Origin: Escherichia phage MRostami-2023e
Sequence record: OQ031495
DNA length: 64,000 nt
Direction: 5' to 3' (one strand)
Each line of letters begins with the position of its first letter. Position 1 is the first letter of the stretch. The translations under genes were made by a program, and so were the position numbers. The notes beneath the pieces are model-generated. The model did not search any database, was not told the DNA's origin, and was given only the letters and a program-made list of their open reading frames with translations. Positions 12,260 to 59,724 of the stretch are shown piece after piece.

Positions 12260-13929
12260 TATTTTACCTTAATGATATAGTTTAAAGAAATATTCCATGG
12301 GCGAGTTTCATTTCCAATTAATTCTGGACGATTCAGGGTATATTTAGAGTTACGCTGAGACGCTGGATCAATTTCATATCCATCGTTAGTAAAATACGAA
12401 CGGTTATCTTCTGGACGATTCAGGGTATATTTAGAGTTACGCTGAGACGCTGGATCAATTTCATATCCATCGTTAGTAAAATACGAACGGTTATCCCAGT
12501 CAAGTCCTTTACGAGTACCAACAAAGTTTGAACGACGAGTATTACCGAATGCTCCTGCATCGTCATGTTCACCAAAACCGCCAGCATGCTTATGATATGA
12601 CATCTGTTGTTTTTGCACCTCACCAACATATCCACCGGTACAACCTACCGCCAGACGAGGCTTACCGAATTGGTCATTACCATTAACATTAGGGTTAGTT
12701 AAATGGTTACCACGACCTGAGCCGCGAACAAATAATCCACGCATATCGGGCAAGCCTGGGTTAGAAGAACTACCACCATATCGTGTCCCAATTCTGGAAG
12801 CATATACCGGACATTCTGAAGCAGAAACGGTCCCACCGTGACAGAAACGCCAGTCCGAACTCGGCAAACTATCTGCAGCCCACATTGTAATAGCGCCAAC
12901 TGGAAGAATTCGGTCTAATTCATTTTGAGTCACAATACGATTGCCTTGAATATAACCACCGGTCATATTGACATTACCCGTTATATTAGCACCACCAGAA
13001 CCAACCGTCAACGTATTATTAATGCGAAGCGTGCCATTAATAGTTTGACCGCCTCGTTGGTGGATAACATCAGCATTCCAAGCAAGGGCAGAAGAACCAT
13101 CACCACCTGATTGGCTACCCGCTTGTGTAGTTAAACGAACAACTCCACGTAAAGAAGTTGTAGCCCCACGCCCGTTTAATGTTGCGCCGGTCACTACAAC
13201 TGAAGAGTTGTTACTATTTACTTCAGTCTGTGTCCCTAGTTTAACGACACCTTTATTAGTTTCTGATGCTACTGAATTCATAAAGGTATAAGGTGAAATT
13301 GCATAGCCTTCACGCAGGGTGCCTTGTTGTGCTTGTGCAACTGTAGCTAAACGAACAACACCTGTAATAGATTCGGTGGCGTCACTATTATTTGGAGCAA
13401 TTTGTGAAATAAGTTTAATTGCTAATTGTTGTGTTTTTAACGGGGTCATCGCCGTTGTATCGTCAGAACCAGCTAATGCCGCAGCAGAAGTTGAAATTTT
13501 AATTACACCATTTGTTGCTTCTGTTGATACTTTTGTCTGGAATACATTGTCTATTTTTTGATTCAATTTAAGCGGAGTAATTGATGCATCGTCAATAGCT
13601 CCGGCTACTGCTTCATCTTCAGTAGCATAACGAGTTAAACCATATTGAGTTTCGGTTGCATTAGGATATTGTAGACGAGCATTCAGTGATGCCGGAGTAA
13701 CAGCTTTACTATTATCTAATCCATCAATAACTTCTTGTGGAGTGGCTATTTGAATAATTCCAGGTGTAGTAGTTGTTGCTTCCGGGACGCCGTTAACACC
13801 TGAAGGAGAAATAGCAGCTAATGCGGCTTGGACATTAGTGACTGTATCTGGAAAATTCGACCCAGTAGGGTCGAATTCAACGTAAATAGATTCATTTGAA
13901 ACGTGTTGGTATGTATTGTTATTACTCAT
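12259..13929 (-). CDS. 12: Short tail fibre protein gp12 (carries an in-frame 29-aa tandem duplication)
   Basis: 556 aa vs T4 527 aa; C-terminus ...[19 protein letters not shown] as in T4 gp12. Confidence 0.9.
12322..12495 (-). repeat. Perfect 87-bp tandem direct duplication (2 copies) inside gene 12
   Basis: 12322-12408 identical to 12409-12495; encodes [29 protein letters not shown] twice. Confidence 0.9.
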
Positions 13930-35064: not shown

Positions 35065-35667
35065 ATGCGAAACCAAAATAATGATATTGACTCAATGTTC
35101 GAAGAGTTCCGAGATAAGGTAAATCCACCTACGTCTTTAGTTGATTCATTACGATATGTTGCAACTGGGCGTAAATGGTACTGGTCGTCTTCTTATGAGA
35201 CTACTGAGAAAACAGCTAGCCATAGCAGAAAATCTTTATTAGCCCCAGGTATTATGATTCATGATATCGGAGCTATTGCTAAACTAGTTGCAGACCATGA
35301 TATTAGATTCACCGATTTCGTTGCTCCTACATGGTCTGTTTGTTGTTTAAACACCGAATGGGAATATATCAGCGAACGCTCTAAAGATTATTATGGTTTT
35401 AGAGATAAGCTTTTAAGGTCTAACATGTTTTATATTGATACAGAAGTTCTGGTCAATAATAAAAAATACTACTTCACTTTAATCGTCGATTCTGAAACTA
35501 TGTATGAAGGCAAGCCTTTGCTTAAAAGAGTTGATGCTTTAAGTGCTATTGATGCGCTTTATGAAACTATGGTTGTTAGTCCTAATTTCACTAACAATTT
35601 AATCCTTGAGCAATTTATTATGGAATGTAGAGAATATGTCAAAGCCAACCCTATACATGCCAAGTAA
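35065..35667 (+). CDS. Hypothetical protein, C-terminal FIMECR motif (family member 1, soluble)
   Basis: ATG with SD aaaggag; ends ...EQFIMECREYVKANPIHAK. Confidence 0.6.
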   Translation: MRNQNNDIDSMFEEFRDKVNPPTSLVDSLRYVATGRKWYWSSSYETTEKTASHSRKSLLAPGIMIHDIGAIAKLVADHDIRFTDFVAPTWSVCCLNTEWEYISERSKDYYGFRDKLLRSNMFYIDTEVLVNNKKYYFTLIVDSETMYEGKPLLKRVDALSAIDALYETMVVSPNFTNNLILEQFIMECREYVKANPIHAK

Positions 35668-36031
35668 GCCCTGGGCATACGAATACAAACGTAAATTAAT
35701 CCCAAACGAAGTACTATTTGGCCCTATTTTAGCTTTAGCATTTTTAATCTTTATGATTATAGGAGCTGTTTTAGATTCCAATAAAGTTATATCGTCCGAT
35801 GCAGCGTTTTCATTAATGTTCGTCGCACCACTTATTGTACCGTTTTTATTAATGCCTATTAATTGGGTAGGATATTGGCACCAAGGCCGTCATCACAGAG
35901 CTCGAGTTCGTGAGTGGAAAGTTCAGTGCGCAAAAGCCCAAGCTCAGTATGATGAAGCTGTTAAAAAGTATGAATATGAAGAAGCTATGGAATTCGTTAA
36001 GGAGATAAGATGCAAAAGCCACAACTCTTAA
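35636..36031 (+). CDS. Two-TM membrane protein, C-terminal FVKEIR motif (family member 2)
   Basis: Two hydrophobic segments; ends ...AMEFVKEIRCKSHNS; overlaps upstream gene. Confidence 0.6.
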   Translation: MSKPTLYMPSKPWAYEYKRKLIPNEVLFGPILALAFLIFMIIGAVLDSNKVISSDAAFSLMFVAPLIVPFLLMPINWVGYWHQGRHHRARVREWKVQCAKAQAQYDEAVKKYEYEEAMEFVKEIRCKSHNS

Positions 36032-36369
36032 CCGTATGGCCTTCTCTTGGTGAGAACATTCTAATTTTTATTATGAGTATTGGCATGGGATTTGCCTTTG
36101 GATTAGTTGGATTTCTTATTGACGGCGTTGTGTTAGGATTTATAGGGAACACTGGTGGATTCACAGACCAATGGCAGGACTTACGGTATACCCAAGCCTT
36201 TGCATCCATCGCATCCTTTTGTACTGTAGTCTATTTTTACTACGATTTTATAAACCGTAACAAGAAAAATAAAAAGGTTTACGCTTCTCAAATGGTTAGT
36301 TATAATGAACTCCTAGCTAGACGTGAAAATGAAACAATCGAAAACTTTATTAAGGAATGTAGAAAATGA
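36010..36369 (+). CDS. Two-TM membrane protein, C-terminal FIKECR motif (family member 3)
   Basis: SD aaggag; ends ...IENFIKECRK. Confidence 0.65.
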   Translation: MQKPQLLTVWPSLGENILIFIMSIGMGFAFGLVGFLIDGVVLGFIGNTGGFTDQWQDLRYTQAFASIASFCTVVYFYYDFINRNKKNKKVYASQMVSYNELLARRENETIENFIKECRK

Positions 36370-36671
36370 GTAAGATTATTGAAATTAAAGTACCAGAGTT
36401 TAATGATGCCAAATCCGCTTCAGACGCAATTTATAAACTTCTGAATCAAGCTGAACGTATCGAAGAAGAAGCAACAAAGATCGCAGACCAATATGCCGTA
36501 TCATTTTCTGTAGGTGATTATGGTAGCGGTCGTACTTATTATCCTAAGGGTGAAATCGTATCCCAGTGGATGAAAGATGAAATTGAAAATAATGGTGGCG
36601 ATGTTAAGCGTGAAGGTAATGGTTACGTTATTACTGAAGGTGCTTGGGTTTCGTCTTCTGCGTTGTGCTAA
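36366..36671 (+). CDS. Hypothetical protein, paralog A (C-terminus GAWVSSSALC)
   Basis: ORF track; ATGA-coupled. Confidence 0.6.
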   Translation: MSKIIEIKVPEFNDAKSASDAIYKLLNQAERIEEEATKIADQYAVSFSVGDYGSGRTYYPKGEIVSQWMKDEIENNGGDVKREGNGYVITEGAWVSSSALC

Positions 36672-36680
36672 GGAATCATT

Positions 36681-36953
36681 ATGTCTAAAGAACAAACCGA
36701 ACTGGCTGAAGCTGTAGCAAAAATCTATGCAGCTATTGAGGCTGCCAAAGAAATTGCTGATAAACAAAACACAACATTCAACTTGTACCCAGCTTATGGT
36801 ATGGGTGGAACCTATCATTCACCCGGACAGCTTAAAGCCGATCTTGAACGTTGTACAAAAAACGGCTATGCTGAATGGGCCGACGTTTACCAATACGACT
36901 ACAACCTGAGCCTCGAAACTGGTGGTTGGGTTGCATCTTCTCACACTTGCTAA
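36681..36953 (+). CDS. Hypothetical protein, paralog B (C-terminus GGWVASSHTC)
   Basis: ORF track. Confidence 0.6.
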   Translation: MSKEQTELAEAVAKIYAAIEAAKEIADKQNTTFNLYPAYGMGGTYHSPGQLKADLERCTKNGYAEWADVYQYDYNLSLETGGWVASSHTC

Positions 36954-36962
36954 GGAAACCAT

Positions 36963-37160
36963 ATGTCTCGTGAATTGGATTGTGCTGTACGTACGGCAGT
37001 AGCTGCTCTGGAAAACCTGTTCCAAATTGCAACAGAAGAACGCGAAGAAGTTACATTATGGATTGAAGATAACGCAGGTCTGAATCTCCAGGACGCGATC
37101 TCATTATCCCACAATAGTATCACTGTTCAAGGCTGGGTATCATCTAGTTATTCTTGCTAA
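36963..37160 (+). CDS. Hypothetical protein, paralog C (C-terminus QGWVSSSYSC)
   Basis: ORF track. Confidence 0.55.
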   Translation: MSRELDCAVRTAVAALENLFQIATEEREEVTLWIEDNAGLNLQDAISLSHNSITVQGWVSSSYSC

Positions 37161-37164
37161 AACA

Positions 37165-37202
37165 GTTTACAACAAGATAGGGCTATGTTATAGTAGTCCT
37201 AT
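37165..37202 (+). promoter_or_regulatory. Early promoter cassette (gtttac ... tatagt) with near-perfect inverted repeat atagggcta/tagtcctat bracketing the -10
   Basis: seen in sequence. Confidence 0.6.
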
Positions 37203-37222
37203 CAAATTAAATGGAGTTCACA

Positions 37223-37462
37223 ATGATTTATTACGAAAGTATCGGAACCGAAGTAGTTGCTAAAACTATTACTCGTGAAAAGTTTGCAAAGATATTCGAT
37301 ATGCGTTATAAAAAATCTGAACACAAAGGCATCCGATTCGAAGATGCGCACTGTACAATTTGCCCTTATAATGAAGACATAAACGGTACAATCGTTCCAT
37401 TGGTAGAGGCTTCACATGTCGACCTCTGGGATGAATATGATATCGCATGTCGTGAAATTTAA
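37223..37462 (+). CDS. Hypothetical protein (79 aa)
   Basis: ATG with SD ggag. Confidence 0.55.
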   Translation: MIYYESIGTEVVAKTITREKFAKIFDMRYKKSEHKGIRFEDAHCTICPYNEDINGTIVPLVEASHVDLWDEYDIACREI

Positions 37463-37490: not shown

Positions 37491-38447
37491 ATGATGTTAG
37501 TTATTGGTTCTCGTGCACTTCACTATCACGGTCTTATTGATTCTAGCGCTATCAAAAATAGTGATTGGGACTTTATTGCGGACCAATGTTCTTGGAATGC
37601 ATTCAAAAATCAAATGATGGGTGTATATGTCCACCAAGATAACCCTGATGTCCAAGTTTTCAAATGCTTCCATAATGGACGCGAAACTCATTTTGAAGCA
37701 TATATTGTTCCGGCAATCACTAACGTTCGCGAACTAGTCGGTGAACTCACTCCTGAAGATTTCACGTCTTCTTATGACCTTTTAAAATACGCCAAGAAAA
37801 ATTTGACTAAAGACCGTTTGAACGGGTTTTACTGGGCAACTCCCGAGATATGTCTTGCAATTAAGATGTCTCATCGTTTCAAGAAAAATAATCCATTCTT
37901 TTTAAAGACTATGAACCATATTCAGTATCTTCGTGGTAAAGGTGTTACACTGAACGATGAACTTACTGAAATTATGCTGAAACGCCAGAAAGAAACCTTG
38001 AACTATGCTCACCCAGTTCTTGACACTTCTAAAAGTGCGTTCTTTAAAGATGACATCTATACATATGACCATGATACTATTCACGAAGCCATTGCGTTAA
38101 CAGGCCGCCCAGCGTATACATTTTATATGAAAGACGGTTCTGAAGTCATGACCTCACGTGAGAAGTTCGAATCGTTACCAGAAATGGTCAAATTGGCCGG
38201 TGTATATGAAGAATCATGTGTACTAGCATTAGAACGTTCTCAGATTCCTAATGACTTTAAAATTAACCCTGAAGCCAGTTTCATGATGGCATTAGAAAAA
38301 GTCTGCACAAGCATCACCTCCGGTTGGTTCCGTGAATACGCATACGAGAACTACAGCAAAGTTGTAAGTATGTATCATAAGCTCGGCAAAAATGATTACA
38401 TTAAACGGTTTAAAGAAAATTTTCATATGGTGAAACCTTTCAAATAA
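37491..38447 (+). CDS. Hypothetical protein (318 aa) with N-terminal G-S...D-x-D signature suggestive of a pol-beta-type nucleotidyltransferase fold
   Basis: VIGSRALHYHGLIDSSAIKNSDWDF; tentative motif-level call only. Confidence 0.5.
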   Translation: MMLVIGSRALHYHGLIDSSAIKNSDWDFIADQCSWNAFKNQMMGVYVHQDNPDVQVFKCFHNGRETHFEAYIVPAITNVRELVGELTPEDFTSSYDLLKYAKKNLTKDRLNGFYWATPEICLAIKMSHRFKKNNPFFLKTMNHIQYLRGKGVTLNDELTEIMLKRQKETLNYAHPVLDTSKSAFFKDDIYTYDHDTIHEAIALTGRPAYTFYMKDGSEVMTSREKFESLPEMVKLAGVYEESCVLALERSQIPNDFKINPEASFMMALEKVCTSITSGWFREYAYENYSKVVSMYHKLGKNDYIKRFKENFHMVKPFK

Positions 38448-38466: not shown

Positions 38467-38728
38467 NNNNNNNNNNNNNNNNNNNNNNNNNNNNNNNNNN
38501 NNNNNNNNNNNNNNNNNNNNNNNNNNNNNNNNNNNNNNNNNNNNNNNNNNNNNNNNNNNNNNNNNNNNNNNNNNNNNNNNNNNNNNNNNNNNNNNNNNNN
38601 NNNNNNNNNNNNNNNNNNNNNNNNNNNNNNNNNNNNNNNNNNNNNNNNNNNNNNNNNNNNNNNNNNNNNNNNNNNNNNNNNNNNNNNNNNNNNNNNNNNN
38701 NNNNNNNNNNNNNNNNNNNNNNNNNNNN
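38467..38728. other. N-masked run (262 nt), flanked on both sides by gtttaca promoter elements
   Basis: run of n. Confidence 1.
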
Positions 38729-38766
38729 GTTTACACAATTATAGGACTATGTTATAGTAGTCCTAT
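38729..38766 (+). promoter_or_regulatory. Early promoter cassette with perfect 9-bp inverted repeat ataggacta/tagtcctat around the -10
   Basis: gtttac ... gttatagt; RBS catgaggagaatattATG. Confidence 0.6.
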
Positions 38767-38786: not shown

Positions 38787-39092
38787 ATGAAATTAACAGA
38801 AACCAATCGAATTGGTCTTTTAACAATACTTGCATCACCTTTTTACGCAACTCTTTCTGTTGCGGTATTACAAAAGGCTTACAGTATGGATGGTGTTCCT
38901 GGTTGTATATTTTTATCACCATTTTTGCTATTCGTTGGAGCTTTGTTATTATATGCCACGTCTGGTTTCGACAATAATGTCTGGGTCAATTATAAACGTA
39001 AATTGTCTGAAGAAGAACACGCAGAAGCTCGTAAAAAAGCTATTGAATCTACCAATCTAGAAAATTTCATTAAAGAATGTCGAGGAAAATAA
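38787..39092 (+). CDS. Two-TM membrane protein, C-terminal FIKECR motif (family member 4)
   Basis: ends ...NLENFIKECRGK. Confidence 0.65.
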   Translation: MKLTETNRIGLLTILASPFYATLSVAVLQKAYSMDGVPGCIFLSPFLLFVGALLLYATSGFDNNVWVNYKRKLSEEEHAEARKKAIESTNLENFIKECRGK

Positions 39093-39093
39093 T

Positions 39094-39780
39094 ATGAATA
39101 GTTCTAAAGTGTTTAATAGTCAAGCTCGTGCAGTAGGTGGTTTTGCTCATGCGATTAAAAACGACCAGATTAAAAACGAGCCTATGTTCTTCAACTGTAG
39201 TTTAGAATTTGCTTATAATAACGGCGGTCCTATTACTCGCAGCTTCATCATGAACTTGCCAGATGATTGGAACACCGACCAGGTTGTATTTGATTCACGA
39301 GTCCACATGCTGATGCCTGGTTGGTACCCTGCTATCCCAGGTTATCACCATGACGATGTACCACGCCCGGATATTCCGGTTGGTCAACACTTTATTACTG
39401 CAGGACAACCTGACTATGACAATCCTCGCTATTTGTCTGAACATATTCTTGGTCTTGTTAACGCTGATGTGTGTCCTACTCATTTTGCAACAGGAACTGC
39501 AGAGTTCAGTCAGATTCCTGATGGCGAACTTATCTATCGTCAGTGGCACAAAGAAGTCCTCGAAAAAATTGAAAAAGGCGAACTAGAGAAATGGGAAGCT
39601 CCAGATCGTACTCTTCTTCAGTTTGATTGGCAAACATGGCACACTGGTTCTCGTGCAATTAGTAACGGATGGCGTTGGTTCGGACGTGTATCTCGTAATA
39701 CAGACCGAGTTAAAAAGATTACCAATGAAATTCGTGTCAATGCCCAAGTTTATCTGGAATTCCCTATGGAAGGCTGGTAA
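39094..39780 (+). CDS. Hypothetical protein (228 aa)
   Basis: ORF track. Confidence 0.6.
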   Translation: MNSSKVFNSQARAVGGFAHAIKNDQIKNEPMFFNCSLEFAYNNGGPITRSFIMNLPDDWNTDQVVFDSRVHMLMPGWYPAIPGYHHDDVPRPDIPVGQHFITAGQPDYDNPRYLSEHILGLVNADVCPTHFATGTAEFSQIPDGELIYRQWHKEVLEKIEKGELEKWEAPDRTLLQFDWQTWHTGSRAISNGWRWFGRVSRNTDRVKKITNEIRVNAQVYLEFPMEGW

Positions 39781-40271
39781 TGATTAACAAAACATATTGG
39801 TCTAATATAGACGATGGCAACGAAGGTATTTCATACTATTCAGTAGATTGGTCAGGATGTCCATCCTACTTAGTGAAGCATATTTGCCAAGAATTTAAAA
39901 TCGACCAGCCAGCAGGTATTATCGTGAACAGATACATTAATGGATATCAACCTATCGATGAAGTAATACGAACAACTCAAGCTGAGCTTGAAAAGTTTTT
40001 CAATAAGTGCCAATGGATAACAGGATGGATTATATTTGTACCGTCGGTATGGTTTTTTAGTACTAAGGTGAGTTCTTTCGGTTTTGTTGATATTATTGCT
40101 ATCTTATTAGCATCTACTATCGTAAGTATTATTGGTGGCATCATTGGCGGCGGTACCGCCGCCATCATTATTAATCTTGTTAAAAGTAGTTTACAGGAAC
40201 GTAAAGACAGGATAAAGGCCAAGAATAATGAAGTTGAACGTTTTATTACCGAATGCAGGAATTTGAGATGA
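39780..40271 (+). CDS. Two-TM membrane protein, C-terminal FITECR motif (family member 5)
   Basis: ends ...VERFITECRNLR. Confidence 0.65.
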   Translation: MINKTYWSNIDDGNEGISYYSVDWSGCPSYLVKHICQEFKIDQPAGIIVNRYINGYQPIDEVIRTTQAELEKFFNKCQWITGWIIFVPSVWFFSTKVSSFGFVDIIAILLASTIVSIIGGIIGGGTAAIIINLVKSSLQERKDRIKAKNNEVERFITECRNLR

Positions 40272-47154: not shown

Positions 47155-47416
47155 NNNNNNNNNNNNNNNNNNNNNNNNNNNNNNNNNNNNNNNNNNNNNN
47201 NNNNNNNNNNNNNNNNNNNNNNNNNNNNNNNNNNNNNNNNNNNNNNNNNNNNNNNNNNNNNNNNNNNNNNNNNNNNNNNNNNNNNNNNNNNNNNNNNNNN
47301 NNNNNNNNNNNNNNNNNNNNNNNNNNNNNNNNNNNNNNNNNNNNNNNNNNNNNNNNNNNNNNNNNNNNNNNNNNNNNNNNNNNNNNNNNNNNNNNNNNNN
47401 NNNNNNNNNNNNNNNN
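47155..47416. other. N-masked run (262 nt)
   Basis: run of n. Confidence 1.
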
Positions 47417-47770: not shown

Positions 47771-48352
47771 ATGGCTAGTTTAATTTTTACATATGCCGCT
47801 ATGAATGCTGGTAAGTCTGCTTCATTACTTACTGCCGCACATAACTATAAAGAACGTGGCATGGGTGTATTAGTTCTTAAACCGGCTATTGATACTCGCG
47901 ATTCAAAAGGTGAAATAGTCTCTCGTATTGGTATTCGTCAGGATGCCAATATAATTACAAAAGACATGGATATCTTTGAATTCTATAAATGGGCTGCAGC
48001 ACAAAAGGATATTCACTGTGTATTTGTTGACGAAGCTCAGTTCTTAACTACTGAAAAGGTGTATCAACTTAGTCGTATTGTTGACGTATACAATGTGCCG
48101 GTAATGGCATATGGACTACGAACAGATTTTAAAGGTAATCTATTTGAAGGTTCTCAAGCATTAATGGCTATTGCCGATAAGCTTGTTGAACTTAAAGGTG
48201 TCTGTCATTGTGGTAAAAAGGCCACAATGGTAGCTAGAGTCACGGAAGACGGACTTCCAATTACAGATGGCAGTCAAATTGAAATTGGTGATACCGATAG
48301 ATATGTGTCATTATGCCGGAAGCATTGGAATGATTTGACAGGGTTGTTATAA
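47771..48352 (+). CDS. tk: Thymidine kinase
   Basis: 193 aa (T4 Tk 193 aa); P-loop AMNAGKSASLL. Confidence 0.9.
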   Translation: MASLIFTYAAMNAGKSASLLTAAHNYKERGMGVLVLKPAIDTRDSKGEIVSRIGIRQDANIITKDMDIFEFYKWAAAQKDIHCVFVDEAQFLTTEKVYQLSRIVDVYNVPVMAYGLRTDFKGNLFEGSQALMAIADKLVELKGVCHCGKKATMVARVTEDGLPITDGSQIEIGDTDRYVSLCRKHWNDLTGLL

Positions 48353-49288: not shown

Positions 49289-49628
49289 NNNNNNNNNNNN
49301 NNNNNNNNNNNNNNNNNNNNNNNNNNNNNNNNNNNNNNNNNNNNNNNNNNNNNNNNNNNNNNNNNNNNNNNNNNNNNNNNNNNNNNNNNNNNNNNNNNNN
49401 NNNNNNNNNNNNNNNNNNNNNNNNNNNNNNNNNNNNNNNNNNNNNNNNNNNNNNNNNNNNNNNNNNNNNNNNNNNNNNNNNNNNNNNNNNNNNNNNNNNN
49501 NNNNNNNNNNNNNNNNNNNNNNNNNNNNNNNNNNNNNNNNNNNNNNNNNNNNNNNNNNNNNNNNNNNNNNNNNNNNNNNNNNNNNNNNNNNNNNNNNNNN
49601 NNNNNNNNNNNNNNNNNNNNNNNNNNNN
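49289..49628. other. N-masked run (340 nt)
   Basis: run of n. Confidence 1.
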
Positions 49629-50555: not shown

Positions 50556-51029
50556 ATGATTATCAATGAAAACTCTTGGCACTTTAAACTTTATGCAGCG
50601 TTCAATAGTACATGGAATCGCCCGAAAACATTATGTGCTTATTTTTGGAAAACGTTAATCCCAGTATTGGCTGTTTCAATTATTGGATTTGCGATTTTAG
50701 CAGCAGTCACAATTATTGGCCAGGAAATTTTAACTAGATTCTTTGTTTTTAGCAGTCTATGGACATTAGTTCCGGCCTCAATTGGCGTAGGCATTTTAAT
50801 GGTAGCAGTCATGGCTTTTATTTCTGTAGGGTTGGTAATTGGCCCGTCTTGGTTGTTAGACAAATATAACGACAGAAAATATTATAAAGAAATTGAGTTC
50901 ATTGCACAAAACCAAGAACGAATTAAAAATGGACTTGAACCTATTGAACGTAAGAAATCATTAATAGGTGAATACCTTAAAGCTCGTAAAGAAAAAGTCT
51001 GTCCTACTCTTGAATATAAGGCTAAATGA
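50556..51029 (+). CDS. Multi-TM membrane protein (157 aa)
   Basis: hydrophobic segments; ORF track. Confidence 0.6.
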   Translation: MIINENSWHFKLYAAFNSTWNRPKTLCAYFWKTLIPVLAVSIIGFAILAAVTIIGQEILTRFFVFSSLWTLVPASIGVGILMVAVMAFISVGLVIGPSWLLDKYNDRKYYKEIEFIAQNQERIKNGLEPIERKKSLIGEYLKARKEKVCPTLEYKAK

Positions 51030-52015
51030 TGAAAACAATTATGAAAGGCTACTTTGGTAGTCACCTTTATGGAACGTCCACTCCTGAATCTGACGTCGAT
51101 TTTAAAGAAATTTATGTCCCTCATGCTCGTGATATCTTGACCGGTAACGTTAAAGAACACATGAGCAAGAACACGAATAACACATCTTCTAAGAACACAA
51201 AAGACGACGTGGACCATGAGTTGTATAGTCTCAAATATTTCTTTAAACTAGCTGCGGATGGTGAAACTGTCGCATTAGATATGCTTCACACTCCACCAAG
51301 CCTAGTAGTTAAATCTGATTTGCCTGATGTATGGAAGTATATTCAAGATAACAGGTCTCGTTTCTATACCACTAACATGAAATCTTATTTAGGGTATGTC
51401 CGTAAGCAAGCTTCTAAATACGGTGTCAAGGGTTCTCGACTGGCTATTCTTCGACAAGCCCTTAAACGTTCTAATGAATGGGGACAATACTTTGATAATG
51501 GTGCAGTAATTCGTTTATCACATATGAAGAATGTTCTGCCTGTAGGTGAATTTGCTTCGTGGGTTGAAACCGAAAACGAGAAAACAGGTAAGCAAACATT
51601 CTATAATCTGTTGGACCGTAAATTCCAAGACACGTTAACCAATAAAGAGTTCAATGCCATCCTGGTTAAACTGGAAGAGAACTACGGTGAACGTGCTCGT
51701 AAGGCAGAAGCTAACGAAGGTATTGACTGGAAAGCATTGAGTCATGCGTGTCGTGGTGGACTTCAATTATTGGAAATTTACAAAACCGGCGACCTGGTTT
51801 ACCCACTTCAGGATGCTCCATTTATTCTCGATGTTAAGCTTGGTAAACATACGTTTAAAACTGTACAAGAATTCCTAGAAGATATCGTTGACCAAGTTGA
51901 ACATGCATCGGAACAAGCCGCTAAGAACGGTATGCAACAAAAAGTAGATATGAGTTTCTGGGATGATTTCCTTGAGCAAGTCTATCTCGAAAATCATAAT
52001 TCTTACTATAAATAA
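51026..52015 (+). CDS. Nucleotidyltransferase-fold protein (pol-beta superfamily signature)
   Basis: GSHLYGTSTPESDVDF = G-S-x(n)-D-x-D motif near N-terminus; 329 aa. Confidence 0.6.
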   Translation: MMKTIMKGYFGSHLYGTSTPESDVDFKEIYVPHARDILTGNVKEHMSKNTNNTSSKNTKDDVDHELYSLKYFFKLAADGETVALDMLHTPPSLVVKSDLPDVWKYIQDNRSRFYTTNMKSYLGYVRKQASKYGVKGSRLAILRQALKRSNEWGQYFDNGAVIRLSHMKNVLPVGEFASWVETENEKTGKQTFYNLLDRKFQDTLTNKEFNAILVKLEENYGERARKAEANEGIDWKALSHACRGGLQLLEIYKTGDLVYPLQDAPFILDVKLGKHTFKTVQEFLEDIVDQVEHASEQAAKNGMQQKVDMSFWDDFLEQVYLENHNSYYK

Positions 52016-59539: not shown

Positions 59540-59724
59540 NNNNNNNNNNNNNNNNNNNNNNNNNNNNNNNNNNNNNNNNNNNNNNNNNNNNNNNNNNNNN
59601 NNNNNNNNNNNNNNNNNNNNNNNNNNNNNNNNNNNNNNNNNNNNNNNNNNNNNNNNNNNNNNNNNNNNNNNNNNNNNNNNNNNNNNNNNNNNNNNNNNNN
59701 NNNNNNNNNNNNNNNNNNNNNNNN
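59540..59724. other. N-masked run (185 nt) flanked by identical 9-mers ttaagttaa
   Basis: run of n. Confidence 1.

What the first reader, a model, noticed from the sequence alone, without database searches (positions are those of the whole stretch)
37491..38447. Second candidate nucleotidyltransferase-fold protein in the hyperplastic region
The N-terminus VIGSRALHYHGLIDSSAIKNSDWDF carries the same G-S...D-x-D arrangement as the 51026 protein but is otherwise unrelated. It sits among the membrane-protein family and is followed by a masked segment flanked by promoter elements.
Basis: inference. Interest (0 to 1): 0.45.

Follow-up and report, generated by a model that had tools for sequence, protein, structure and literature searches.

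The report
Phage AbiEii/MenT-like nucleotidyltransferase with small partners
This RB69-type phage gene encodes a real but uncharacterised nucleotide-transferring enzyme related to bacterial MenT/AbiEii toxins, and in most related phages it sits directly downstream of a family of small acidic proteins that all end in the motif W-x-S-S-S-x-x-C.

Summary
The ORF at 37491..38447 (+, 318 aa) is real. It equals RB69ORF134c and the vB_EQ1 protein XPQ48263, both annotated as hypothetical.

- A high-confidence AlphaFold model (pLDDT 91.9) has a Pol-beta nucleotidyltransferase (NTase) core.
- G6, S7, D25, D27 and E69 are conserved, and D25 and D27 are invariant in every homologue aligned.
- 6 of 78 family members match Pfam AbiEii directly.

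Pfam files the protein only as DUF7277 + DUF7275. The family is phage- or prophage-borne wherever I could see its context (735 of 50,697 phage records, plus giant viruses).

The unexpected result is the gene context. In 80 of 85 related loci, 1-5 tandem genes for small acidic proteins lie directly upstream. These proteins end in ...G-W-x-S-S-S-x-x-C. The count is 219 copies upstream, 0 downstream and 2 on the opposite strand. A reverse search, starting from the small proteins, finds the enzyme next to them every time. A second clade, in phages of actinobacteria and Vibrio, has a different small partner.

The acceptor of the nucleotide is unknown. My estimates are an RNA 3' end (about 0.35) or the partner protein (about 0.3-0.35). 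I rate this a new variant of a known kind, of moderate interest.

The parts
37491..38447 (+). CDS of the 318-aa NTase-fold protein (RB69ORF134c homologue; Pfam DUF7277 + DUF7275; phrog_2141)
   Evidence: ORF and translation. Annotated as a CDS in vB_EQ1 and RB69. Pfam and PHROG hits. AlphaFold model with pLDDT 91.9.
37494..37793 (+). N-terminal lobe (aa 2-101, DUF7277): the minimal Pol-beta NTase alpha/beta core
37506..37574 (+). Catalytic motif G6-S7-x17-D25-W-D27-F28
   Evidence: D25 and D27 are invariant and G6 and S7 nearly invariant in 78 sequences covering both clades. The motif is rare by chance.
37695..37697 (+). E69, the putative third metal-binding carboxylate, on strand 64-73
   Evidence: E in 78 and D in 7 of 89 homologues. 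Position in the model.
37848..38405 (+). C-terminal helical lobe (aa 120-305, DUF7275). Universally invariant residues: K125, H128, K139, H194, D195, H198, E240, E241, E248, R249.
   Evidence: Pfam match with E 1.4e-77. Invariant columns. K125 lies 98-100 residues after the DxD motif, the same spacing as the motif III lysine of MenT1/3/4 and AbiEii. This mapping is my inference from residue numbers given in PMC7450476, PMC11375011 and PMC3985639.
36366..36671 (+). Partner gene 1 (101 aa, acidic, ends ...GAWVSSSALC; phrog_899)
   Evidence: The homologous gene is split into ORF138c and ORF139c in the RB69 reference.
36681..36953 (+). Partner gene 2 (90 aa, ends ...GGWVASSHTC; phrog_899)
   Evidence: AlphaFold model with pLDDT 87: a long N-terminal helix plus a small sheet that includes the GGWVA strand.
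36963..37160 (+). Partner gene 3 (65 aa, ends ...QGWVSSSYSC; phrog_4882)
37211..37462 (+). 83-aa ORF directly upstream of the NTase gene (phrog_3723). It is found only in close relatives, and whether it belongs to the module is unclear.
37166..37194 (+). Promoter-like site TTTACA-17-TATAGT (with TG), resembling a T4-type early promoter, ahead of the 83-aa ORF and the NTase gene
   Evidence: Consensus scan only. Not evidence of function.
38467..38728 (.). Masked run of 262 N. It is an insertion relative to vB_EQ1 and RB69, flanked by the 7-bp direct repeat GTTTACA.
38730..38758 (+). Promoter-like site TTTACA-17-TATAGT just after the masked run, ahead of the 101-aa membrane-protein gene
   Evidence: Consensus scan only.

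Best explanation
The gene encodes a catalytically competent nucleotidyltransferase of the Pol-beta superfamily, on the AbiEii/MenT (DUF1814) branch.

**Proposed mechanism (inferred).** G6-S7 and the carboxylates D25, D27 and E69 in the N-terminal lobe bind Mg2+ and an NTP. K125 and the conserved basic residues of the C-terminal lobe hold the triphosphate and the acceptor. An NMP is then transferred to a hydroxyl group of the acceptor.

**Module.** The enzyme works as part of a two-component module with small partner proteins encoded next to it. In this phage the partners are the three proteins ending in W-x-S-S-S-x-x-C at 36366..37160.

**What is shown.** The fold, the conserved catalytic residues, the sequence link to AbiEii and the gene coupling.

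**What is inferred.** The chemistry and the acceptor. My estimates for the acceptor are:
- The 3'-OH of an RNA, such as a tRNA acceptor end as for MenT, with the small proteins acting as MenA1-like modulators: about 0.35.
- A conserved Ser of the partner protein itself: about 0.3-0.35.
- A small molecule: about 0.1.
- The remainder: something else.

The confidence given below applies to the general statement (an active AbiEii/MenT-lineage NTase that works with its small partners), not to any one acceptor.

For: **Catalytic residues.** D25, D27, K125, H128, H194, D195, H198, E240, E241, E248 and R249 are invariant in 78 sequences. These sequences span the gamma-proteobacterial-phage clade and the actinophage/Vibrio-phage clade, at 26-75% identity to the window protein.

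**Sequence link.** P0436 matches Pfam AbiEii at 32.7 bits, above the 22.5-bit cut-off. 6 of 78 members match AbiEii. The GS-x17-DxD spacing is long, as in DUF1814 (x15, PMC3985639).

**Coupling.**
- 80 of 85 loci have 1-5 W-x-S-S-S-x-x-C genes directly upstream on the same strand. The counts are 219 upstream, 0 downstream and 2 on the minus strand.
- Five distant partner homologues were found by a profile search that did not use the enzyme. All have a DUF7275 gene 0.5-1.5 kb downstream wherever the contig reaches that far.
- The 75 kb of T4 that I examined, including the syntenic e.2/e.3 junction, lacks both genes.
- The actinophage clade has a different small partner directly downstream, often with overlapping stop and start codons.

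**Precedents.**
- Small, unrelated antitoxins encoded upstream of MenT toxins (PMC11375011).
- Adjacent-gene protein AMPylation by the MntA NTase (from my own knowledge, not checked here).
- Phage NTases that restore RNA ends (PMC7824862).
Against: - No biochemical data exist for any member of the family.
- The window protein itself does not match Pfam AbiEii.
- DUF1814 motif IV (+DxxD) is not present as written.
- The Ser/Thr phospho-acceptor two residues before the first Asp (MenT1 T39, MenT3 S78) is not conserved here; it is N23.
- The enzyme is near neutral (family median pI 6.3), which is not typical of an RNA-binding enzyme.
- The partner's terminal motif is predicted to be part of a small fold rather than a free tail. 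That makes it a less obvious substrate.
- Up to five partner paralogues per genome does not look like an ordinary antitoxin.
- Giant-virus homologues exist, and I could not inspect their context.
- Gene coupling could in part reflect shared descent.
Confidence: 0.7

Rival explanations
1. RNA-end nucleotidyltransferase (sub-hypothesis A). Like MenT1/3/4, the enzyme adds nucleotides to the 3' end of tRNAs or other RNAs. It could do this to shut off host translation or, together with phage RNA-repair enzymes, to restore damaged 3' ends. The small acidic proteins would be regulators or inhibitors, analogous to MenA1, and not substrates.
For: - The closest structures and the only Pfam sequence link are tRNA-modifying DUF1814 toxins (PMC7450476; PMC10435456, abstract).
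- The gene order, small helical partner upstream of the NTase, matches menA1-menT1. MenA antitoxins are diverse and unrelated to one another (PMC11375011), as are the two partner families found here.
- RNA-repair or tRNA genes lie nearby in several lineages. These are RNA ligase / Pnk / RNA ligase in Streptomyces phage Circinus, a tRNA cluster in Gordonia phage Aphelion, PNKP and a ligase in jumbo-phage-like contigs, and an RNA ligase in an Actinoplanes prophage.
- Phages are known to carry NTases that restore RNA ends (PMC7824862).
Against: - The enzyme is near neutral overall.
- DUF1814 motif IV and the regulatory Ser/Thr are missing.
- The large invariant set H194-D195-H198 / E240-E241 / E248-R249 has no counterpart in MenT, judged from MenT1's length. 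This suggests a different acceptor site.
- The RNA-repair neighbours are inconsistent, and they sit in gene-dense early regions where chance proximity is likely.
- The partner's only invariant residues are W, S and C of the terminal motif, not residues of the helix.
Confidence: 0.35
2. Partner-protein nucleotidyltransferase (sub-hypothesis B). The enzyme transfers an NMP onto a conserved Ser, or the Cys, of the W-x-S-S-S-x-x-C motif of the co-encoded small proteins. In the actinophage clade the target would be a Ser/Tyr of the GYYxSYxGSxWDG motif. This would resemble MntA AMPylating HepT. The product would be a set of modified small acidic effectors, or the modification could activate the Ser for further chemistry.
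For: - The coupling is strict and holds in both search directions.
- The only invariant residues of the partner family are W83, S86 and C90 of the terminal motif.
- 28 of 195 partners carry the motif twice.
- The structural relatives ANT(2'') and LnuA catalyse O-nucleotidylation of hydroxyl groups.
- Both unrelated partner families have an invariant Ser in an aromatic- and Gly-rich motif.
- Clade-A-invariant residues R129, R165, H174, C272, S277 and R281 are all replaced in the three homologues that lack such partners.
Against: - AlphaFold places the motif inside a small fold with pLDDT about 76-86, not in a flexible tail.
- The residue correlation is confounded by phylogenetic distance.
- No member of the DUF1814 branch is known to modify proteins other than itself.
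- No docking or complex prediction could be run.
Confidence: 0.32
3. Small-molecule nucleotidyltransferase. Like ANT(2'') or LnuA, the enzyme nucleotidylates a hydroxyl group of a small molecule, for example an antibiotic-like compound, a nucleotide or an immune signal. The neighbouring small proteins would be unrelated cargo of a variable genome region.
Against: This does not explain the near-universal, direction-specific coupling to small proteins in two clades. There is no match to any resistance or defence family (NCBIfam and PADLOC both empty).
Confidence: 0.1
4. Non-catalytic NTase-fold protein, acting as a structural protein, a binding protein or a pseudo-enzyme.
For: No activity has been shown. 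One database record calls a homologue 'prohead assembly scaffold protein'.
Against: All catalytic carboxylates, the GS motif and the motif III lysine are invariant at 26-75% identity. Pseudo-enzymes normally lose these. The scaffold name is isolated, and nothing in the domain hits or structural matches here supports it.
Confidence: 0.04

Closest known systems
MenT1/MenT3/MenT4 and AbiEii (DUF1814, Pfam PF08843): NTase toxins of type IV/VII toxin-antitoxin and abortive-infection systems
   Same: - Two-lobed build, with an NTase core followed by a helical lobe.
- Long GS-to-DxD spacing (x17 here, x15 in DUF1814).
- An invariant Lys about 100 residues after the DxD motif, in a hydrophobic context and with a basic residue at +7, like motif III KLxAaxxR.
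- A small partner gene next door.
- Some family members pass the Pfam AbiEii threshold.
   Different: - The window protein itself does not match PF08843.
- Motif IV (+DxxD) is replaced by K139-T-M.
- There is no conserved Ser/Thr phospho-acceptor before the first Asp.
- An extra stretch of about 120 residues carries the invariant H194-D195-x-x-H198, E240-E241 and E248-R249.
- The family is carried by lytic phages and prophage replication modules, not by cellular toxin-antitoxin loci.
- The partners are new families and come in up to five copies.
ANT(2'')-Ia (AadB) and LnuA: antibiotic O-nucleotidyltransferases
   Different: No sequence similarity. They are much smaller (158-175 aa). They have no conserved partner genes and no phage association.
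MntA-HepT (MNT-HEPN) type VII toxin-antitoxin systems
   Same: A minimal NTase encoded next to a small protein, which it modifies by AMPylation. This is a working analogy for sub-hypothesis B and comes from my own knowledge.
   Different: The partners here have no HEPN Rx4-6H motif and are unrelated to HepT. The enzyme is on the DUF1814 branch, not the MNT branch. No modification has been shown.
RlaP / T4 NrdC.11 (Pfam PF10127): the other NTase in this window, at 51026..52015
   Same: A phage-borne Pol-beta NTase with GS...DxD at the N-terminus. It is predicted to act in RNA repair (PMC7824862; PMC12776372).
   Different: No detectable sequence similarity. A different Pfam family. It is present in T4, whereas this family was not found in the 75 kb of T4 examined.

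Membership tests
Pol-beta nucleotidyltransferase superfamily (fold level) | An alpha/beta core with h-G-[GS] at the junction of strand 1 and helix 1 | tested here: met
   I5-G6-S7 lies between strand 2-5 and helix 7-12 of the model. G6 and S7 are nearly invariant.
Pol-beta nucleotidyltransferase superfamily (fold level) | [DE]-h-[DE]-h on the next strand, plus a third carboxylate on a neighbouring strand | tested here: met
   D25-W-D27-F lies at the start of strand 26-31 and is invariant. E69 lies in strand 64-73 and is E or D in 85 of 89 sequences.
Pol-beta nucleotidyltransferase superfamily (fold level) | Structural similarity to solved NTases | tested here: met
   [not shown]
Pol-beta nucleotidyltransferase superfamily (fold level) | Nucleotidyl-transfer activity | not testable with these tools
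   This needs biochemistry.
DUF1814 / AbiEii / MenT (Pfam PF08843) | Match to the family profile above its threshold | tested here: inconclusive
   The window protein has no match even at E <= 10. However, homologue P0436 scores 32.7 bits against a cut-off of 22.5, and 6 of 78 family members match at E <= 0.01.
DUF1814 / AbiEii / MenT (Pfam PF08843) | Motifs I and II with extended spacing, hG[GS]x15DhD (PMC3985639) | tested here: met
   IGS-x17-DWD.
DUF1814 / AbiEii / MenT (Pfam PF08843) | Motif III: a Lys in a hydrophobic context, KLxAaxxR, about 100 residues after the DxD motif | tested here: inconclusive
   A-I-K125-M-S-H-R-F-K-K132. K125 is invariant, sits 98-100 residues after D25/D27 (MenT1 96, MenT4 102, AbiEii about 105, MenT3 109) and has a basic residue at +7. 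The equivalence rests on spacing only. I had no coordinates for a superposition.
DUF1814 / AbiEii / MenT (Pfam PF08843) | Motif IV: the +DxxD pentad 15-22 residues after the motif III Lys | tested here: not met
   The corresponding stretch is K139-T-M-N-H in the window protein and K-H-M-x-D in the actinophage clade. The first Asp is absent.
DUF1814 / AbiEii / MenT (Pfam PF08843) | A Ser/Thr phospho-acceptor two residues before the first catalytic Asp (MenT1 T39, MenT3 S78) | tested here: not met
   The position is N23 here and varies across the family.
DUF1814 / AbiEii / MenT (Pfam PF08843) | Adjacent cognate antitoxin of a known family (AbiEi/COG5340, MenA) | tested here: not met
   The neighbouring small proteins have no Pfam match and only PHROGs of unknown function. 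They form new families.
Pfam DUF7277 + DUF7275 (phrog_2141) | Match to both profiles above their thresholds | tested here: met
   96.8 and 260.3 bits against cut-offs of 27. phrog_2141 E 1.5e-148.
HD / PDE-type phosphohydrolase (considered for the C-terminal lobe because of H128 ... H194-D195-x-x-H198) | HD-domain fold or profile match | tested here: inconclusive
   [not shown]

The most novel reading that the evidence does not exclude
The NTase and the tandem W-x-S-S-S-x-x-C proteins form a phage-encoded protein-modification system that has not been described.

The enzyme would nucleotidylate a Ser, or the Cys, of the conserved C-terminal motif on a diversified set of small acidic proteins. 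It would do this either to make nucleotide-tagged effectors or to activate the Ser for elimination and thioether formation with the nearby Cys.

One enzyme would then serve up to five paralogous substrates per genome. An analogous but unrelated substrate family would play the same role in actinophages.
Probability: 0.3. Interest if true: 0.8.

Novelty: new variant of a known kind. Interest (0 to 1): 0.55.

Why it matters
DUF7275/DUF7277 is a large family with no assigned function: about 1.4% of sequenced phage genomes, 1,235 clusters at 50% identity, and also giant viruses.

Placing it on the AbiEii/MenT branch means that lytic phages and prophages carry relatives of bacterial anti-phage and toxin NTases. 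That gives a concrete chemistry to test: transfer of an NMP to a hydroxyl group.

The strict pairing with small proteins that share an invariant W...S...C end supplies a candidate partner or substrate. It turns two sets of 'hypothetical proteins' in the variable region of RB69-type phages into one testable module.

Depending on the acceptor, the module could be a host-shutoff tool, an RNA-repair tool or a new kind of protein modification.

Tried and rejected
1. **Sequence searches against solved structures** found nothing. I tried the single sequence, a 50-sequence profile and the homologue that matches AbiEii.
2. **NCBIfam and PADLOC** gave no hits.
3. **Literature searches** for DUF7275, DUF7277, RB69ORF134c, the protein accession and the PHROG ids found nothing relevant. 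A search for phage-encoded RiPPs (ribosomally made, post-translationally modified peptides) also found nothing relevant.
4. **The afdb50 fold library** was not available. The viral library returned only members of the same family.
5. **'The family is strictly viral.'** The genome scan found only 5 MAG (metagenome-assembled genome) contigs, but that scan reaches only close relatives. A later profile search found chromosomal copies in Actinoplanes, Streptosporangium and Rhodococcus. These turned out to sit in prophage-like replication and nucleotide-metabolism modules. The family is therefore phage-associated in every context I saw, not proven absent from cells.
6. **'The W-x-S-S-S-x-x-C segment is a disordered RiPP-like core peptide.'** This is weakened: AlphaFold folds it into the small domain.
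7. **'The two partner families are remote homologues.'** Rejected by hhalign, probability 0.1.
8. **Fusions of partner and enzyme** (a Rosetta-stone test): none were found among the longer homologues.
9. **Other recurrent neighbours** include a metallophosphatase, a ligase, SIR2, RNR, ThyX and the 228-aa phrog_1843 protein. Each is confined to particular lineages, so I did not treat them as part of the module.
10. **A fused enzyme-linker-partner structure prediction** was considered and not run.
11. **The T4 control** covers only 75 kb (5001-80000) of the 169-kb genome.
Full report
**What the window is.** The window is about 100% identical to Escherichia phage vB_EQ1 (PQ516281.1, reverse strand) and about 95% identical to RB69, so it comes from a Mosigvirus. 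The region is the variable stretch between the lysozyme gene e / nudE and the tRNA genes. In T4 the genes e.2 and e.3 are adjacent. RB69-type phages carry an extra cassette between them: three or four small genes, an 83-aa ORF, the 318-aa ORF studied here, a 101-aa membrane protein and a 228-aa protein.

**Checking the observation.**
- The ORF 37491..38447 (+) is 318 aa. It has a GAGGA ribosome-binding site 7 nt upstream and is annotated with the same length in both reference genomes.
It occurs in 0.4% of shuffles of this protein.
- The protein at 51026 is a Pfam RlaP NTase (the T4 nrdC.11 type). It shows no similarity to this one.
- The neighbours are the e.2/e.3/e.4 membrane-protein family.
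- The masked run is 38467..38728. It has GTTTACA on both sides, and a promoter-like TTTACA-17-TATAGT follows it.

**Fold.** Pfam places the protein in two domains of unknown function: DUF7277 (aa 2-101) and DUF7275 (aa 120-305). PHROGs places it in phrog_2141, also of unknown function. NCBIfam, PADLOC and PDB sequence searches return nothing.

AlphaFold2 with a 50-sequence alignment gives a confident model (pLDDT 91.9, pTM 0.86). Its N-terminal lobe has the canonical Pol-beta NTase order of elements:
- strand 1, then G6-S7 at the start of helix 1;
- D25/D27 at the start of strand 2;
- E69 on a later strand.

**Sequence link to AbiEii.** The window protein does not match Pfam AbiEii. A profile built from three distant homologues (Streptomyces phage Circinus, Gordonia phage Aphelion, Vibrio phage ValKK3) recovers a second clade of about 250-aa proteins (1,084 hits). 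One of these passes Pfam's AbiEii threshold (32.7 bits against 22.5, E 9.6e-8). Of 78 sequences spanning both clades, 6 match AbiEii at E <= 0.01.

The GS-x17-DxD spacing is long, like the x15 that defines DUF1814 (PMC3985639). The invariant K125 sits 98-100 residues after the DxD motif. The motif III lysines of MenT1, MenT3, MenT4 and AbiEii sit 96-109 residues after theirs. This mapping rests on spacing only.

Two DUF1814 features are missing: motif IV (+DxxD) and the Ser/Thr phospho-acceptor. In their place the family has its own invariant set further along the C-terminal lobe: H128, K139, H194-D195-x-x-H198, E240-E241 and E248-R249. I considered an HD/PDE-like metal site for these residues and could not test it.

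**Distribution.**
- 2,126 homologues in the clustered protein collection, and 1,235 representatives at 50% identity.
- 735 of 50,697 phage records. Hosts include Escherichia, Acinetobacter, Aeromonas, Pseudomonas, Vibrio, Klebsiella, Gordonia and Streptomyces.
- Predicted structures of the same family in giant viruses, Sylvanvirus and Satyrvirus.
- Chromosomal copies in actinobacteria that lie among prophage-type replication and nucleotide-metabolism genes.
- Neither the gene nor its partners in the 75 kb of T4 that I examined.

**The gene coupling.** I collected 85 loci that hold a homologue (39-96% identity, contigs of 2-370 kb) and clustered all their ORFs.

The only neighbour conserved across divergent loci is a family of small proteins of 52-172 aa, median 90, with median pI 4.4. 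The genes lie directly upstream on the same strand in 1-5 tandem copies. Every copy ends in ...G-W-x-S-S-S-x-x-C followed by the stop codon.
- Counts: 219 such ORFs upstream, 0 downstream and 2 on the opposite strand. 80 of 85 loci have at least one, and the median gap from the nearest copy to the enzyme gene is 353 nt.
- 186 of the 195 distinct proteins link into one BLAST superfamily. They therefore form a real protein family (phrog_899 and phrog_4882) and not merely a shared tag.
- The only invariant residues are W, one S and the terminal C. 28 of the proteins carry the motif twice.
- In the window the copies are at 36366..36671, 36681..36953 and 36963..37160. No other ORF in the 64 kb has this ending.
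- Reverse test: a profile of the small proteins found 62 homologues. For five distant ones, the contigs that encode them carry a DUF7275 gene 0.5-1.5 kb downstream wherever there is enough flank.

AlphaFold models the 90-aa copy with pLDDT 87. It shows a long N-terminal helix and a small sheet into which the GGWVA strand is built. The motif is therefore probably not a floppy tail.

**The second clade has a different partner.** In actinophages and prophages the enzyme gene is followed at once, often with overlapping stop and start codons, by a gene for a 96-158-aa protein. That protein ends in YFRKtGYYxSYxGSxWDG...KTITVY. In Vibrio phage ValKK3 the same family lies directly upstream. It is not homologous to the first partner family (hhalign probability 0.1).

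Diverse, unrelated small partners next to a DUF1814-type NTase are also the pattern of the MenAT systems (PMC11375011).

**Mechanism.**
- *Shown:* the NTase fold, the intact catalytic residues, homology to AbiEii/MenT, and the coupling to small partner genes.
- *Inferred:* Mg2+-dependent transfer of an NMP from an NTP to a hydroxyl group.

I cannot decide the acceptor.

The case for an RNA 3' end (about 0.35) rests on the closest relatives, on the MenA1-like gene arrangement, and on scattered RNA-repair or tRNA neighbours. It fits the known use of NTases by phages to restore RNA ends (PMC7824862). Against it are the near-neutral charge of the enzyme and the family-specific C-terminal lobe.

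The case for the partner protein as acceptor (about 0.3-0.35) has three parts:
- the partners' only invariant residues are nucleophiles in a fixed motif;
- the partners come in multiple copies;
- residues that are invariant in the partner-associated clade (R129, R165, H174, C272, S277, R281) are all replaced in the three homologues without such partners.

That correlation is confounded by evolutionary distance. The AlphaFold model of the partner also argues mildly against this reading.

A small-molecule acceptor (about 0.1) does not explain the coupling. A non-catalytic role (about 0.04) is unlikely given the conservation.

**Novelty.** The protein family is catalogued, but only as DUFs. One GenBank record (Acinetobacter phage Octan) already says 'putative nucleotidyltransferase'. 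I found no paper on the family, on its link to AbiEii/MenT or on the partner proteins. I rate it a new variant of a known kind: a phage-borne, structurally extended offshoot of the DUF1814 NTases with its own partner families.

**Limits.**
- I had no model coordinates, so the motif III/IV equivalences and any metal site are inferences from spacing and conservation.
- No complex prediction was possible.
- The locus set is biased towards relatives that share two conserved peptides.
- The T4 control covers 45% of that genome.
- The masked 262 nt after the gene cannot be read.

Noticed in passing
window 38467-38728 and 47155-47416; also 49289-49628 and 59540-59724: Several masked N-runs are insertions relative to the otherwise roughly 100% identical genome vB_EQ1. 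Two of them are exactly 262 N long. The one at 38467 is flanked by a 7-bp direct repeat, GTTTACA, which matches the -35 element of a T4-type early promoter. The reference has a 70-nt spacer with a single copy of that sequence. In related phages the same junction carries extra genes, for example a protein of about 216 aa that looks like a homing endonuclease, in L018, L026 and L041. The content of the masked runs is unknown.
   Followed up: partly
window 12323-12494 (junction at 12408/12409): The window repeats about 86 bp relative to vB_EQ1. The alignment jumps back from record position 47937 to 48023 at this point.
   Followed up: no
window 35606-36031, 36010-36369, 38787-39092, 39780-40271: The e.2/e.3/e.4-type membrane-protein paralogues around the cassette share a C-terminal tail of the type (N/R)F(I/V)xECR followed by a few residues: EFVKEIRCKSHNS, NFIKECRK, NFIKECRGK, RFITECRNLR. 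Related loci show the same ending, for example L029 with ENFIRMCRKN. This is a second family in the region defined by a conserved C-terminal end containing Cys.
   Followed up: no
window 39094-39780: A 228-aa protein (phrog_1843, RB69ORF132c) recurs 0.5-1.5 kb downstream of the NTase gene in 23 loci. These include Aeromonas phage-like contigs whose other genes differ. It has no Pfam or PDB match. It contains a GYHHDD ... WHTG pattern that might be a metal site.
   Followed up: partly
L089 5747-6076, L090 4618-5375, L091 4360-4653, L108 6777-7121, L109 6823-7299, L110 6768-7157: There is a second, unrelated small-protein family, ending YFRKtGYYxSYxGSxWDG...KTITVY. It is coupled, often with overlapping stop and start codons, to the actinophage/Vibrio-phage clade of the NTase. 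It has no Pfam family.
   Followed up: partly
L002 3366-3672 (RB69 ORF139c and ORF138c): In the RB69 reference, the first W-x-S-S-S-x-x-C gene is annotated as two short overlapping ORFs of 216 and 102 nt. In vB_EQ1 and in the window it is a single 306-nt gene. This is a frameshift or a sequencing or annotation difference.
   Followed up: no
A December 2025 preprint reports biochemical and structural characterisation of that family (PMC12776372).
   Followed up: partly
L049, L050, L052, L080 (IMG/VR contigs): These are four of the five loci that have the NTase gene but no W-x-S-S-S-x-x-C gene within 5 kb upstream. In them the enzyme has substitutions at otherwise conserved positions: D193 to Q or E in all four, and W279 to R where I read the C-terminus (L049 and L080).
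   Followed up: no
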